From Podarcis pityusensis (lineage: Eukaryota): DNA of 64,000 nt. How positions within the stretch are numbered: the stretch's first letter is position 1; each line of letters starts with the position of its first letter. The position numbers were made by a program. The DNA lies in NCBI GenBank assembly GCA_964106645.2, contig OZ067039.1; one strand, 5' to 3'. Shown here piece by piece: positions 17,501 through 44,400 of this stretch.

Positions 17501-20500
17501 TAGGTCTGCCTTTTAAAGGCCCATGTCTTAGCGTTTTGCTTTGTTTTTTGTCCTGGTGCTTTCCCTGGGAAAATCAACATTTTACTGCTGAATTGGAGCA
17601 AATGGCAATTCATGGAAAACCCAGTTACCCTTTGTTCTGATTCAGCGGTGAAATGCAGGCTTTCCTGGGGAAAGCGCCAGGACACGCTCAGAGCTTTAAA
17701 CCCATGCCTTAGAAACATGGCACAAAAGGCAGTCTGGATGAGCGCTTAGTCGTGACATGCAGCTGGTGCTATGGAAGTTCTGTGAAAGAAAAAGGACAGC
17801 CAGTGGGAACAAAGGTACTGTGTGTCAACATCAGGCATAGGCAAACTCGGCCCTCCAGATGTTTTGAGACTACGATTCCCATCATCCCTGACCACTGGTC
17901 CTGTTAGCTAGGGATAATGGGAGTTGTAGTCCCAAAACATCTGGCGGGCCGAGTTTGCCTATGCCTGGTCAACATGAAAGAGGAAACAGCAAAGAGGGTG
18001 GAAAGGATCAGCTAATAGTGTTCTCCTATGCCACACCCAATTTTGACCGTAAACTCTTCAGGGGAGAAGGTTTGTTTTAGCCCTGCTAACATCTGTCATA
18101 TATATAAATGAATACACCTATAGCATTAATAGGAAGGCAGCCAATAATATGGGATAGATTATCTAAGCATGTATCTTCAAGATATGTATATTGTAAAGAT
18201 GCAAAAAGACTGAGCCTACTGTTCAGAAGCAGAAGAGAGATAATGAGCAAAGCATGGTTATAAGCCACACACACATGTGATATTGCTTTCCACATAAAGC
18301 CTCCATGATATCTGGGGTTACTCACCACATCTGCTGTATCCCTACAGGGTCCATACCAGTAGATGGCTCATCTAATAGAGTAACATTAGGGTTACCAAGC
18401 ATACTAAGAGCAAAGCATAACTGAAAGAGAAGGGAAGGGAAGGGTGACCATTATACAATGCACCATTGGCTGCATTTGAACACTAATGCCAAGCCAAAAA
18501 TCCTGACTTAAATCTGGGATATGCACAAGTGATGTGCATCATCATGCAGCCCATTTCCTACTACTTTGCTCCTTCCTTCCTACCAGTGGCAGAACAAGCC
18601 AAGATTTTTAGCACAGCTTTCCATTGTGAGCAAACCTAGAAACTAGCTTCAAAAGAAGCCAGGTTATTAAGGAATGTTTTTTGGCTTAATGCCCCCTGGC
18701 TTGCTTTGGTGATTAACCATAGTTTCTGGGTTTGCACACAATAATAAGCAATGGTTTGTTTTGCCGCTCATATGAAACAAGAATGTGTGGATTCACAGTG
18801 GTCATGCATATCCAGGCTTATTGATCCTGGATTTTTGGTTTAGCAATTCAGCTTAAGAACAACAATCAAATACCTTTCGTTTGATTCCTACTCCAAGGTC
18901 CTTTGCTCTTTTCTGTAGATGTTCCTTGAGGTCAAGTGCATGGGAAATGCTGGAGAAAAACAAAAGTATACAGTGTTAAACATTCTAAGAAACCAGTATT
19001 AGAGAACTTTAGCGTATGCTCATTAGTTCTTTTTCAAGTAAATTACTTCATATGACATTTTGTGTTTTAGCTAGTATTATTTGATCTCCAGTTAACTTTA
19101 CACTATTTGTGGTTTTAACTGGATTGATCTTCCCTACAGAAATAATCAAGATGTATGCCACAGGTAGCTTAAGTGTTTTTTTAATGGTGTTTTAAGAGAT
19201 GTGACCAGAAGAGTCTTGCAACCTGACAATTTTGTCTGTAACTTAGACTGTTGACTACAAATTACCTTTCAAACTAGCACAGAAGATTTTGATACATAAC
19301 AGAAAGCAGAATCTGAACTACAGCTTTCATCAGCCTAAAAATAAAATGATGCAAATTTATGTCTTAGATATATCTGTGTATCTACAAGAATCTGTGTGGT
19401 GTGGTTTTTAAGTTGAAGCTAACAACCATTTTCAGGGAGACATTATACCAAAGTAAGAGAGAAGAAACTTCTCTGAATGTAAACGAAGTGTTTAAAATAT
19501 ATATTTACCATTTTATGAATTCTTTCATGTTACTTTCACTCATTCCTTTGATAGCACCATAAATTTCAAAATGTTCCTCCAATGTAATATCAGGCCAAAG
19601 TGGATTTGTCTGTGGACAGTATCCCATAAATCTCATGGAGCTATCCTTGTTATTTTCGCCTAAAGAATAATCTCCCATCAGCACCTGTGAATATACCAGT
19701 CCTTATTCAATACTTTTACATATAGTTTGCAGTTAACATGCAGAAAAGTTGATTGTATGGAAAGTTTAATTTAAAAAAAAAATGACAAGAAATGCTCAGG
19801 TTTGGTTTTACTACATGATCACTCTTTTATATACCAGGAGCCATCTGGGATATAGCCTTCCTATGGGTAGTCACAACATCCCAGTGCCTATTTCTGAATC
19901 TAAGCCATATATCATATGAACGGAAAACCCATTGTACCCCCTCTAAAAGTGTTAGCTTTAGAAGCAAAGCAAACATGAGTCTGTTCACAACTCTCAACCA
20001 TGTATTTTAGTAGGTCTTGTGAAACCCCCCCCCCCCAGTTCATAGTTCTGAGATTATCTATGAAACCAAAAAGGAGTTAGGCACTGAAAATTCATATGCA
20101 TGAACATTTCCAATAATGGGCACCCCACTCTTGCATAATCTTCTTTGGGCATCTAGCTGAGGTTTAGGTATTTACATGCCAGCTGGAAAGAAATATCCAG
20201 AAAAGAGTATGGATCCTCAGTATGAAATAACATTTTTTACCCTCTGAAAAAAAAGGACTACAGCCTGAGCTATGAAACCTGTTCTGGATGGAAGAGGGGG
20301 ACACCAGCTTCAGGTTGCACTTGAATACCTGGCCTGAGGTTGGTTCTACTTCTCCCACCAACATATTAATCAGTGTGCTCTTCCCAGCTCCATTGGGGCC
20401 TAGCAGTCCCATAATTTCTCCTGAAAAAAGAAAAGGCAAACACGTAAAATGTGCAGTTCTGTTTAATGAGATGGTGCATTTTATTTTCCCGACTTATTTA

Positions 20501-41400: not shown

Positions 41401-44400
41401 TTTTGAAATATGGCAACCCTACTGTTTCCTCAAGCACATTGTCTCCTGTTATTGTAAGTTTTTATTTCACGGTCTCAGCCTGCCTGCCAGTAGTTTGGGA
41501 ATATACTAAAAATAAAATAATTTTTTTTTTTAAAGCAATTTATTGGGTTTTACAATAGAAATAAACATAATAAACAATATAACATTTGTCTTAACATAGT
41601 TTCACATTTTCTTTGGACTTCCTCACATCTCCCGCTCCCACTTTCATCGTTATAACATTTTGTCAGCAATTTATCATCTTATTTAGATTCTTATATCCCT
41701 TCTATGTTTCATAATCTTATAGTTCTCAAAAGGAGTTAAATTTTCACAGTCTTACTTATTTTCTTAAAAAACTTCTAAGTTTAGTGGTGCTCAGTTATTT
41801 TGGTCTAGCATCTTATTTAGCATTCGCTCAAATTACAATGTTTTTGTAAGTAATTCTTAAATTTCTTCCAATCCTCCTCAATCCTCTCTTCTCCCAGGTC
41901 ACGAATTCTGCCGGTCATTTCGGCCAGTTCCATGTAGTCTATCAGTTGCATCTGCCATTCTTCCAGTGTGGGTAGATCTTGAGTTTTCCAGTATTTTGCA
42001 AGAAGTATCCTTGCTGCTGTTGTTGCATACATAAAAAATGTCTGGTCCTTCTTTACCACCCCTTGGCCGACAATACCCAAAAGGAAAGCCTCTGGTTTCT
42101 TAGTGAAGGTATATTTAAATACCTTTTTCAGTTCATTATAAATCATTTCCCAGAACGCCTTCACTTTAGGGCAAGTCCACCAGAGGTGGAAGAACGTTCC
42201 CTCACACTCTTTACATTTCCAACACTTATTATCAGACAGGTGGTAAATTTTTGCAAGTTTGACTGGGGTCATATACCATCTATAAATCATTTTCATTACA
42301 TTTTCTTTCAGAGCGTTACATGCAGTAAATTTCAATCCATTACTCCACAACCTTTCCCAGTCCTCAAACATGATATTATACCCAATGTCCTGTGCCCACC
42401 TTATCATAGCCGATTTAACCGTTTCATCTTGTGTATTCCATTTCAACAGCAAGTTATACATCCTTGAAAATACCTTAATCTTTGGTTCTAACAATTCTGT
42501 TTCTAGTTTCGATTTCTCCACCTGGAACCCTAGTTTCTTATCATTTTTAAAAACTTCTTTAATCTGAGCGTAATGTAACCAATCTCGCACTTTGTCTTTC
42601 ATTTTCTCCAAACTCTGCAATTTCCAGTTATCTCCATCCTTTTCTAGTATTTCCCAATATTTTGGCCATTTAGCCTCCATATTGGGTCTTTTTCGGGCCT
42701 TGGCTTCCAGAGGTGAAAGCCACCTTGGTGTTTTATTTTCCAGCAAGTCTTTATATTTTGTCCAGACATTAAACAGTGATTTTCTGACAATATGGTTCTT
42801 GAAGGCCTTATTTGCTTTAACCTTGTCATACCATAAATATGCATGCCATCCAAAAGTATTGTTAAACCCTTCCAGATCTAACACATCAGTGTCTTCAAGA
42901 AGTAGCCAGTCTTTTAGCCAGCAGAACGCTGCGGCTTCATAATACAGCTTTAGGTCTGGCAGGGCAAAGCCCCCTCTTTGTTTTGCGTCAGTTAGTATCT
43001 TAAACTTAATTCTGGGCTTTTTGCCCTGCCAGACAAACTTAGAAATATCTCTCTGCCACTTCTGAAAGCACTCCTTTTTGTCCAAAACCTGAAGTGTTTG
43101 AAATAAAAACAACATCCTTGGCAATACATTCATCTTGATAGCAGCAATTCGGCCTAACAAAGAAAGTTTCAATTTTGACCAACTGTCTAAGTCTCTCTTA
43201 ATTTCTGTCCAACATTTTTCATAATTGTCCTTAAATAGACTTAGATTTTTTGCTGTTATGTTTACCCCTAGGTATTTTACTTTCTTAACCACATTAAGTT
43301 CCGTCTCATTCTGAAACCGTTCTGACTCTGTATCAGTCAAATTTTTTCCCAAGACCTTAGTTTTCTGTTTATTTAATTTAAACCCAGCCACCCGACCAAA
43401 GTCATTAATCAGTTGTAATACTCTTTTCGTACTAGGCTCTGGCTTCTGCAAGGTCAAGACCAGGTCATCTGCAAAGGCTTTTAATTTGTATTGTTTCTGT
43501 CCGACCTGAATTCCTTCCACCAACCGATCCCCTCTAATCATGTTCAATAGCACTTCCAGAACCGAAATGAATAACAAAGGGGAGATAGGGCAACCTTGTC
43601 GTGTCCCTTTTTCAATTTTGAACTCTTCTGTAACCACATTGTTAACTATCAATTTAGCTTTCTGTTCTGAATATATCGCCTCAATCCCATTCTCAAAACC
43701 CCGTCCCACTCCCATCTCTTTTAAATTTCCCATCATAAATTTCCAGGAGATATTGTCAAAGGCCTTCTCCGCATCTATAAAAATTAAAACTGCTTTTGTA
43801 TTTATATCTGTTTGCAAAAGTTCCAGAATGTCAATAATGTTCCTTGTATTAGCAAACAGATGTCTACCTGGGAGAAAGCCGGCCTGGTCCTTATGAATTA
43901 CTTCATTTAAAACTTTTTTAAATCTACTTGCCAAAATGTCTGCAAATATTTTGTAATCCACGTTTAGAAGGGAGATGGGACGATAGTTCTTAAGTTGTGT
44001 CTTTTCAGCTTCCGACTTTGGTATTAATGTGATAAACGCTTCCTTCCACGACTCCGGTGCCCTCTTCCCCTCCATAATTTCATTGCTGACCTCCATCAAA
44101 GGTTGTATCAGATAGTCTTTTAATGTCTTATAGTACTTGGAAGTCAGCCCATCTGGCCCTGGAGATTTGCCAAGTTGCATGTTCTGAATGGCTTGTTCAA
44201 TCTCCTGTCGTGTTATTTTAGAATTCAGGATTGTCCTATTTTCTTGTGACAATTTAAATAGTCCATTTTTTGCCAAAAATTGTTTAATCTCAACTTCGTC
44301 TTGCGGCCCTTGGGTGTATAGTTTTTTGAAGTATCTCTGGAAACACTTTCTAATGTCCACTGGATTCTGGATGTTTTTTCCATCAACCTCTAAGTTTGTA

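What the first reader, a model, noticed from the sequence alone, without database searches (positions are those of the whole stretch)
20499..41825. Inverted pair of same-family L1 3'UTRs flanks a 16-exon ABCA5 block next to splice sites: circRNA / multi-exon-skipping geometry
Seen: 20517-20827 (+) and 41526-41825 (-) are ~300-bp copies of the same L1 3'UTR in opposite orientation, about 90% or more identical by eye with a run of about 75 identical nt. In the ABCA5 pre-mRNA one copy ends about 300 nt upstream of the acceptor at 41227. The other begins 16 nt downstream of the donor at 20844. Known: reverse-complementary intronic repeats (for example inverted Alus) promote back-splicing and A-to-I editing. 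Inference: pairing would juxtapose that donor and acceptor, favouring a 2065-nt circle of 16 exons (41227->20844), or skipping of the block, which shifts the frame (2065 mod 3 = 1). This would be a young, lineage-specific, L1-made regulatory structure.
Basis: partly seen in the sequence, partly recalled or inferred. Interest (0 to 1): 0.72.

Follow-up and report, generated by a model that had tools for sequence, protein, structure and literature searches.

The report
Inverted L1 pair in lizard ABCA5
Two copies of the same young jumping gene sit in opposite orientation on either side of 16 exons of a lizard ABCA5 gene, so they could pair in the RNA and help make a circular RNA, but nothing here shows that they do, and one copy also duplicated a splice site.

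Summary
Window 20517-20835 (+) and 41825-41507 (-) are inverted copies of one L1 3' end: 92% identical over 321 columns, with a 75-nt identical run. It is the only strong inverted match of that intron in the window. They flank exactly 16 ABCA5 exons totalling 2065 nt (41227 to 20844, minus strand).

The host is a lacertid-type lizard, not human. Copy B is the tail of a full-length 6.1-kb L1 that is sense to the gene, has an intact ORF2 and has perfect 13-nt target-site duplications (TSDs). Copy A is a 5'-truncated, antisense copy.

The donor AG|GTTAGT therefore occurs twice. The second copy lies 329 nt downstream, in front of the untouched ancestral 94-nt intron, and using it would give an immediate stop codon.

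In silico the arms form a 298-bp duplex (-418 kcal/mol). That duplex would hold the donor at 20844 and the acceptor at 41227 at one end, the known geometry for repeat-driven back-splicing.

No RNA data or orthologous loci were available. I read this as two incidental young insertions with pairing potential, not a demonstrated regulatory structure.

The parts
20517..20828 (+). Copy A: a 5'-truncated L1, antisense to ABCA5. It holds the last two ORF2 codons plus the stop (20517-20525), the 3'UTR, AATAAA at 20796-20801 and an interrupted A-rich tail from 20809.
   Evidence: Sequence; alignment to copy B; blastn 92.2% over 321 columns.
20500..20516 (+). Distal target-site duplication of copy A. 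On the minus strand it carries a second, decoy copy of the ABCA5 donor: the exon-end equivalent is 20515 and GT is at 20514-20513, preceded by C at position -3.
   Evidence: The 16-nt core occurs exactly twice in the window, against 0.03 expected; 0 of 100 shuffles gave 2 or more. Sequence.
20829..20845 (+). Proximal target-site duplication of copy A. It spans the exon/intron junction and contains the authentic donor (last exon base 20844, GT at 20843-20842 on the minus strand).
20421..20514 (-). Ancestral 94-nt intron, still intact behind the decoy donor. The present intron, 20421-20843, is 423 nt, and 329 nt of it is the insertion plus one TSD.
   Evidence: Coordinates; arithmetic.
20844..20961 (-). 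Last exon of the block (118 nt). Reading past its donor meets TAG at intron positions +3 to +5.
20329..20420 (-). Exon downstream of the block (acceptor at 20420).
21330..40981 (-). The 14 internal exons of the block: 40981-40891, 39649-39510, 38327-38208, 38109-37908, 36009-35837, 35026-34899, 34530-34393, 33993-33880, 31512-31342, 30236-30123, 29733-29599, 23742-23677, 22374-22283, 21453-21330.
   Evidence: tblastn of the Zootoca vivipara ABCA5 protein P0005 against the window; splice-site and phase bookkeeping without joining exons.
41089..41227 (-). First exon of the block (139 nt, Walker B region of nucleotide-binding domain 1). Acceptor at 41227; it ends in a GC donor.
41507..41825 (-). 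Arm B: the last ORF2 codons, 3'UTR and poly(A) of the full-length L1, sense to ABCA5. AATAAA at 41544-41539; 11 A's at 41531-41521.
41521..47622 (-). Full-length L1 (6102 nt) inside the 7726-nt intron 41228-48953. The 5' end is CpG-rich.
   Evidence: Perfect 13-nt TSDs at 47635-47623 and 41525-41513, which are the only 2 matches in the window. Sequence.
41817..45557 (-). L1 ORF2, open from ATG to stop (about 1246 codons), with endonuclease and reverse-transcriptase domains.
   Evidence: The closest proteins are Podarcis muralis reverse-transcriptase entries, up to 92% identical.
45934..46620 (-). Candidate L1 ORF1 (229 codons from ATG). Its intactness is unresolved.
   Evidence: No Pfam family below E = 0.01, only weak matches all far below their curated cut-offs.
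48954..49073 (-). Exon upstream of the block (donor at 48954).
25136..28635 (+). Older, frameshifted L1 of another family, antisense to ABCA5, in the intron 23743-29598. It gives only 64-71% patchy complementarity to the full-length L1.

Best explanation
These are two independent retrotransposition events of one young, lacertid-specific L1 family into introns of a lizard ABCA5 gene. Copy B is a full-length 6.1-kb element, sense to the gene, inserted 293 nt upstream of the acceptor at 41227. Copy A is a 312-nt 5'-truncated copy, antisense to the gene, inserted at the exon/intron junction at 20844, so that its target-site duplication copied the donor.

The inverted arrangement is incidental, not an evolved device. 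It does give the nascent pre-mRNA the capacity to form a duplex of about 300 bp whenever the 7.7-kb upstream intron is still unspliced at the time copy A is transcribed, 20.7 kb later. That duplex would place the donor at 20844 and the acceptor at 41227 at the same end.

The most likely outputs are a minor back-spliced 2065-nt, 16-exon circle and/or A-to-I editing of the arms, as by-products. The bulk of transcripts would be spliced linearly through the proximal donor.

Shown here: the elements, their identity, orientation, TSDs, exon map, pairing energy and lack of competitors. Inferred: that pairing happens in vivo, and every RNA outcome.
For: Independent insertions. Each copy has its own perfect TSD and its own flanks.

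Same family. The arms are 92-93% identical, and arm B is contiguous with an intact endonuclease plus reverse-transcriptase ORF2.

A is not a daughter of B. They differ at 20 of 294 columns while B's 3.7-kb ORF2 is still open. This is my inference.

Lineage. The best ABCA5 matches are Podarcis muralis and Zootoca vivipara at 98% on the exon searched and about 96% over all exons. The nearest ORF2 relatives are all P. muralis, at 76-92%.

Pairing capacity. Cofold gives -418.2 kcal/mol with 298 intermolecular and 0 intramolecular pairs. The arms alone fold at -30.8 and -36.0 kcal/mol. Twenty shuffles of arm A gave -92.7 +/- 5.3 kcal/mol. The longest helix is 86 bp and there are 4 G-U pairs.

No strong competing inverted partner exists in the window.

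Literature. Repeats of 30-40 nt close to the splice sites suffice for circularization in minigenes (PMC4201285 passages). Circle-flanking introns are enriched in young, species-specific TEs, and the circles are interpreted as by-products (PMC8516420 abstract and section 10).
Against: No RNA evidence of any kind was available, so even a minor circle is unproven.

Several features argue against efficient circularization. The arms are 20.7 kb apart, so the upstream intron must survive the transcription of 16 exons. An identical decoy donor lies 3 nt beyond arm A, and the splice-site-proximal end of the duplex is poly(A):poly(U). Liang and Wilusz report that cryptic intronic 5' splice sites and poly(A) stretches limit circular RNA production, and that stronger hairpins sometimes inhibit it (PMC4201285 passages).

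Conversely, 'incidental' is an argument from base rates. With one locus and no population or cross-species data, selection for or against the arrangement cannot be assessed.
Confidence: 0.6

Rival explanations
1. The inverted pair is a functional, lineage-specific regulatory structure. Pairing drives substantial back-splicing of the 16-exon block, or its skipping (48954->20420, frameshift), and thereby tunes ABCA5 output.
For: The geometry is right. Donor and acceptor end up at the same end of a 298-bp duplex, separated by 8 + 279 unpaired nt, and there are no strong competing pairs. Reverse-complementary matches promote both back-splicing and skipping in vivo in C. elegans (PMC8330042 abstract). 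Short repeats suffice in human minigenes (PMC4201285 passages).
Against: There are no expression data. The loop is 20.7 kb and 16 exons. A decoy donor and a poly(A) stretch lie next to the repeat (PMC4201285 passages). Cross-species work finds little evidence of conserved circRNA function and treats TE-driven circles as by-products (PMC8516420 abstract). Copy B is so young (ORF2 open, perfect TSD) that an evolved role is unlikely.
Confidence: 0.12
2. The main consequence of copy A is donor duplication, not pairing. The decoy donor at 20515|20514 matches the authentic one from -2 to +15 and has C rather than A at -3. It still fronts the complete ancestral 94-nt intron. If it competes successfully, the exon grows from 118 to 447 nt, takes in antisense L1 sequence and hits a stop one codon past the normal exon end. 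The result is a non-productive (NMD-type) isoform and a hypomorphic allele.
For: The 16-nt core TSD is identical in both copies. The donor is at 20844 and the acceptor at 20420. Read-through translation stops at TAG, intron +3 to +5. The ancestral intron is uninterrupted. From recalled classic work on duplicated 5' splice sites, not read here, the site nearer the 3' splice site tends to win when both are occupied by U1.
Against: The ABCA5 exons in the window remain 86-100% identical to lizard orthologues, and the canonical junction is the one found in all four reference proteins compared. That fits continued use of the proximal donor if the insertion is not very recent. A 447-nt exon is less favourable under exon definition (recalled). 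No RNA data.
Confidence: 0.25
3. The dominant effect comes from the sense-oriented full-length L1 itself. It could cause premature cleavage and polyadenylation at its AATAAA (41544-41539), slowed elongation through the A-rich ORF2, or transcriptional interference from its own promoter. The inverted copy A would be irrelevant.
For: The L1 is sense to the gene and occupies 6102 of the intron's 7726 nt. It has an intact poly(A) signal and tail. The plus strand at 40-48 kb shows the skew expected of an A-rich sense L1 on the minus strand. [quoted passage not shown]
Against: This is untested in this species, and many intronic L1s are tolerated. It is not exclusive of the other readings.
Confidence: 0.15
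4. Assembly artefact: a collapsed or misjoined repeat creates a false inverted pair.
For: None specific. Repeats are where assemblies fail.
Against: Both elements have unique flanks and perfect TSDs. The copies differ at 20 of 294 columns. The window holds no N, and the exon order is colinear with the reference proteins.
Confidence: 0.02

Closest known systems
Inverted-repeat (IRAlu-type) circRNA loci in mammals, e.g. ZKSCAN1, HIPK3 and the mouse Sry circle
   Same: Same-family retroelements in opposite orientation in the two introns flanking the circularizable exons and close to the splice sites. The arm length (about 320 nt) and identity (92%) are at least as good as the 82% over 287 nt of the ZKSCAN1 Alu pair quoted in PMC4201285.
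   Different: The repeats are L1 3' ends rather than SINEs, and the host is a lizard. The loop is 20.7 kb with 16 exons, where the studied cases have one to a few. One arm belongs to a full-length, apparently coding L1. No circle has been observed here.
Young species-specific TE dimers flanking circRNAs (Gruhl et al. 2021, PMC8516420)
   Same: A recently active, lineage-restricted TE family provides the reverse-complementary pair. The interpretation as a splicing by-product carries over.
   Different: That study covers five mammals and found SINEs to be the TE class enriched in circRNA-flanking introns (section 10). Reptiles and L1-L1 dimers of this kind are outside what I read.
Intronic L1 effects on host transcripts (Kaer et al. 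2011, PMC3192792)
   Same: [quoted passage not shown]
   Different: Those are human loci with experimental support. Here the evidence is sequence only.
L1-mediated insertions that disturb splicing, e.g. the mouse chagun Poc1a allele (PMC4619696)
   Same: Target-primed insertion with a 15-bp TSD in or next to an exon, with a splicing consequence.
   Different: There the insertion is inside exon 8 and causes exon skipping. Here the TSD straddles the junction and duplicates an intact donor. One search for such a case (13 papers hold all four terms, 11 listed, 1 read in passages) turned up no precedent. That is weak evidence that none exists.

Membership tests
LINE-1 (L1) non-LTR retrotransposon | ORF2 with an APE-type endonuclease and a reverse transcriptase | tested here: met
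   In the 1248-aa frame 41817-45563 (-), Pfam Exo_endo_phos matches residues 8-230 (E 3.7e-14) and RVT_1 matches 515-769 (E 8.3e-38).
LINE-1 (L1) non-LTR retrotransposon | 3' poly(A) tail preceded by a poly(A) signal, and flanking target-site duplications | tested here: met
   Copy B has AATAAA, 11 A's and 13-nt perfect TSDs. Copy A has AATAAA, an interrupted A tail and 16-17-nt perfect TSDs. B's target is a canonical T-run/A-run site. A's is not (read from the sequence).
LINE-1 (L1) non-LTR retrotransposon | ORF1 (coiled coil plus RNA-binding domains) upstream of ORF2 | tested here: inconclusive
   A 229-codon ATG frame lies at 46620-45934, and an overlapping 128-codon frame follows. Pfam Transposase_22 does not match; there are only weak matches (best E 0.012), all far below their curated cut-offs.
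Inverted-repeat-driven circRNA locus | Reverse-complementary sequences in the introns flanking the circularized exons, near the back-splice sites | tested here: met
   The arms lie 279 nt from the acceptor and 8 nt from the donor.
Inverted-repeat-driven circRNA locus | Cross-intron pairing not out-competed by pairing within one intron | tested here: met
   blastn of the upstream and downstream introns against the window shows no other inverted hit above 71% identity. Only the part of the gene inside the window was examined.
Inverted-repeat-driven circRNA locus | An observed back-splice junction, RNase R-resistant and dependent on the repeats | not testable with these tools
ADAR-edited intronic dsRNA | A long, nearly perfect intramolecular duplex | tested here: met
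   298 predicted pairs, longest helix 86 bp. In silico only.
ADAR-edited intronic dsRNA | Clusters of A-to-G mismatches in RNA relative to DNA | not testable with these tools
   No transcript data.
Competing (tandem) 5' splice sites | Two donor sequences of comparable strength upstream of one acceptor | tested here: met
   Both copies are identical from -2 to +15. Position -3 is A in the proximal copy and C in the distal one. Both face the acceptor at 20420.
Competing (tandem) 5' splice sites | Both sites used in vivo | not testable with these tools
   No transcript data. The four lizard reference proteins use the canonical junction, but whether their genomes carry the insertion is unknown.

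The most novel reading that the evidence does not exclude
The two insertions together form a switch on a conserved lipid-transporter gene. Copy A leaves ABCA5 with two identical donors. Whether copy A is single-stranded or locked in a 300-bp duplex with the upstream L1 decides among three fates: productive splicing from the proximal donor, a stop-containing isoform from the decoy donor, or a 2065-nt 16-exon circle. A young, possibly still polymorphic L1 pair would then set ABCA5 dosage in this lizard lineage. It would be a natural experiment on 5' splice-site competition and on long-range, L1-driven back-splicing outside mammals.
Probability: 0.1. Interest if true: 0.55.

Novelty: new member of a known kind. 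Interest (0 to 1): 0.3.

Why it matters
If the circle or the decoy-donor isoform exists, this locus would extend TE-driven back-splicing to a reptile and to L1-L1 pairs spanning 16 exons. So far the mechanism has been documented mainly for SINE pairs in mammals. The locus would also offer a clean natural test of how the spliceosome chooses between two identical donors, one of which keeps the original short intron. If neither exists, which I consider more likely for anything beyond trace levels, it is an ordinary pair of young intronic L1 insertions. It would still be useful as an insertion-polymorphism marker and as an example of a probably recently active lacertid L1.

Tried and rejected
I made no such scans, so presence or absence of either insertion in other lacertids stayed unchecked.

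Rfam at gathering thresholds over the whole window gave 0 matches.

Pfam on the two ORF1-region frames found nothing significant even at E up to 10.

The older L1 at 25.1-28.6 kb was rejected as a competing pairing partner. It gives only four patches of 64-71% identity.

Literature:
- A search for circRNA work in lizards found 5,188 papers holding 2 of the 3 terms. None of the 10 listed is a lizard circRNA study by title.
- ABCA5 plus circRNA is held by 18 papers. By title and abstract start, none of the 10 listed concerns a reptile.
- The search for TSD-duplicated splice donors is described under Closest known systems.
- Supplementary files were not consulted.

Structure prediction, complex prediction and the protein atlas were not used because no protein question was open.

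
Full report
What the window is

The finding lies in a vertebrate ABCA5 gene on the minus strand. The translation of the exon at 41227-41087 was searched on its own. Of 337 candidates, 263 passed E <= 1e-5. The best four are three Podarcis muralis ABCA5 entries and the Zootoca vivipara ABCA5 isoform X1, all at 98% identity. 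Local tblastn of the Zootoca protein P0005 places residues 191-1643 on the minus strand from 63578 to 14836. Three P. muralis isoforms average about 96% identity over the exons they match. The host is therefore a lacertid-type lizard, but neither of those two species. I do not take this contig for human. The window contains no N.

The exon map was made by coordinate and phase bookkeeping. The joined model, the spliced block or circle, was never assembled, so its coding potential is unexamined.

The observation

The inverted pair is real. The repeat finder reports arms 20571-20832 / 41508-41769 (262 nt, 93%) and 20517-20561 / 41781-41825 (45 nt, 93%), 20,675 nt apart. blastn joins them into one match of 92.2% over 321 columns. 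Without the A-rich tails, 274 of 294 columns are identical.

It is the only strong inverted match of the upstream intron anywhere in the 64-kb window. The four remaining inverted hits are 64-71% patches to an older L1.

What the two copies are

Copy B is the 3' end of a full-length L1 on the minus strand, sense to ABCA5. Directly upstream of arm B lies a 1248-codon open frame (41817-45563). It has endonuclease (residues 8-230) and reverse-transcriptase (515-769) domains, and its ATG is at the third codon. The element runs from 47622 to 41521 (6102 nt). It is bounded by a perfect 13-nt target-site duplication at 47635-47623 and 41525-41513, the only two occurrences of that string in the window (sequence). 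Its target is a canonical T-run/A-run site.

A 229-codon ATG frame (46620-45934) is the ORF1 candidate. No Pfam family supports it, so its integrity is unresolved.

The nearest ORF2 relatives are all P. muralis entries. The best is 92% identical, and many others fall at 76-86%. Anolis proteins are near 42% (379 proteins at E <= 1e-50 among 7,993 scored, 120 listed). The family is therefore lacertid-specific and diversified.

Copy A (20517-20828, plus strand, antisense to the gene) begins 8 nt before the position of the ORF2 stop. It carries the whole 3'UTR, the poly(A) signal and an interrupted A-rich tail.

The two are separate insertions. A is not a recent daughter of B, because they differ at 20 of 294 columns while B's 3.7-kb ORF2 is still open. 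This last point is my inference.

The exon block

Bookkeeping of GT/GC-AG sites that keep continuity with P0005 gives 16 exons:
- 41227-41089
- 40981-40891
- 39649-39510
- 38327-38208
- 38109-37908
- 36009-35837
- 35026-34899
- 34530-34393
- 33993-33880
- 31512-31342
- 30236-30123
- 29733-29599
- 23742-23677
- 22374-22283
- 21453-21330
- 20961-20844

Their lengths sum to 2065 nt, and 2065 mod 3 = 1. The upstream donor is at 48954 and the downstream acceptor at 20420.

Copy A's target-site duplication is 20500-20516 and 20829-20845. Its 16-nt core occurs exactly twice in the window, against 0.03 expected by chance. The proximal copy spans the exon/intron junction: the last exon base is 20844 and GT is at 20843-20842 on the minus strand. 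The whole donor, from -2 to +15, is therefore present twice. The second copy has its exon-end equivalent at 20515 and carries C rather than A at -3.

The present intron is 423 nt. Of that, 329 nt are the insertion plus one duplication. The ancestral 94-nt intron (20514-20421), with its polypyrimidine tract, is untouched behind the decoy.

Reading past the authentic donor meets TAG at intron +3 to +5. Use of the decoy would therefore yield a 447-nt exon with an immediate stop.

All four lizard reference proteins use the canonical junction. I cannot tell whether their genomes carry the insertion.

Pairing capacity and geometry

In the pre-mRNA, arm B is sense L1 and arm A is antisense L1.
- ViennaRNA cofold gives -418.2 kcal/mol with 298 intermolecular and no intramolecular pairs.
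- The arms alone fold at -30.8 and -36.0 kcal/mol.
- Twenty shuffles of arm A give -92.7 +/- 5.3 kcal/mol.
- The duplex has 17 helices. The longest is 86 bp, there are 4 G-U pairs, and about 73% of pairs are A-U.

Because pairing is antiparallel, the 3' end of arm B (279 nt from the acceptor at 41227) and the 5' end of arm A (8 nt from the donor at 20844) lie at the same end of the duplex. That is the arrangement that favours back-splicing. That end is also the poly(A):poly(U) part. The decoy donor lies 3 nt beyond the other end.

Comparison with what is known

- Liang and Wilusz (PMC4201285; abstract and 12 of 27 matched passages read) show that 30-40-nt inverted repeats next to the splice sites suffice for circularization. 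They also show that not all repeats work, that stronger hairpins can inhibit, that poly(A) stretches and G-U pairs limit production, that a cryptic intronic 5' splice site can repress circularization, and that the preceding intron must be spliced slowly.
- Cao (PMC8330042; abstract read) shows that reverse-complementary matches promote both back-splicing and skipping in C. elegans.
- Gruhl et al. (PMC8516420; abstract and section 10 read) find that circle-flanking introns are enriched in young, species-specific TEs. They argue that most such circles are by-products without conserved function.
- Kaer et al. [quoted passage not shown]

Interpretation

The anatomy is that of two incidental, young L1 insertions. 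The pair gives ABCA5 pre-mRNA a genuine, strong and uncontested long-range pairing option with textbook back-splice geometry. Four things weigh against efficient use:
- the 20.7-kb, 16-exon loop;
- the need for a 7.7-kb intron to persist unspliced;
- the adjacent decoy donor;
- the poly(A) end of the duplex.

I put about 0.6 on 'incidental, at most a minor by-product circle and/or editing'. I put about 0.12 on a substantive circRNA or skipping role. I put about 0.25 on an appreciable decoy-donor isoform, and about 0.15 on dominant effects of the sense L1 itself. These readings are not exclusive.

Nothing here can decide among them, because no transcript data, no orthologous loci and no population data were reachable. 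The kind of structure is known and this instance is new, so I file it as a new member of a known kind. The junction-spanning target-site duplication is the most unusual detail.

Noticed in passing
window 1691-8965 (+): The 3' half of a second ABCA5-like gene lies on the plus strand, tail to tail with ABCA5. Its exons match P0005 residues 1288-1609 at 40-75% identity. Lizard databases also list 'ABCA5' and 'ABCA5-like' entries.
   Followed up: partly
window 41088-41083 (-), intron after exon 41227-41089: The first exon of the block ends in a GC donor. No GT donor within the searched range keeps continuity with the reference protein (sequence).
   Followed up: partly
window 25136-28635 (+): An older L1 of another family, antisense to ABCA5, with its endonuclease and reverse-transcriptase frames broken into at least four pieces. 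It lies in the 5.9-kb intron 23743-29598.
   Followed up: partly
window 22966-23067 and 31712-31835 (-): Two intronic near-perfect hairpins with arms of about 50-60 bp. They fold at -84.4 and -80.8 kcal/mol, with z-scores of -10.5 and -11.2 against shuffles. No Rfam family matches. They may be foldback or MITE-like elements.
   Followed up: partly
window 2274-2488, 5792-6006, 16204-16276; 3335-3426, 8482-8573, 30395-30486; 8411-8548, 30324-30461: Several SINE-like dispersed repeat families at 73-92% identity, some ending in A/T-rich simple tails. One copy of each kind lies in an ABCA5 intron. None forms an inverted pair within the ABCA5 transcription unit.
   Followed up: no
window 38110-38207 (-): A very short intron (98 nt) between exons 38327-38208 and 38109-37908. 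Together with the ancestral 94-nt intron at 20421-20514, it shows that this gene has several introns of minimal size.
   Followed up: no
window 35358-35407: A (TC)25 microsatellite in the intron between exons 36009-35837 and 35026-34899.
   Followed up: no
window 20500 / 20829 (left edge of copy A's TSD): The inferred first-strand nick site of copy A is not the canonical T-run/A-run L1 endonuclease target, unlike that of the full-length copy. A 22-nt version of the duplication with one mismatch is also possible.
   Followed up: no
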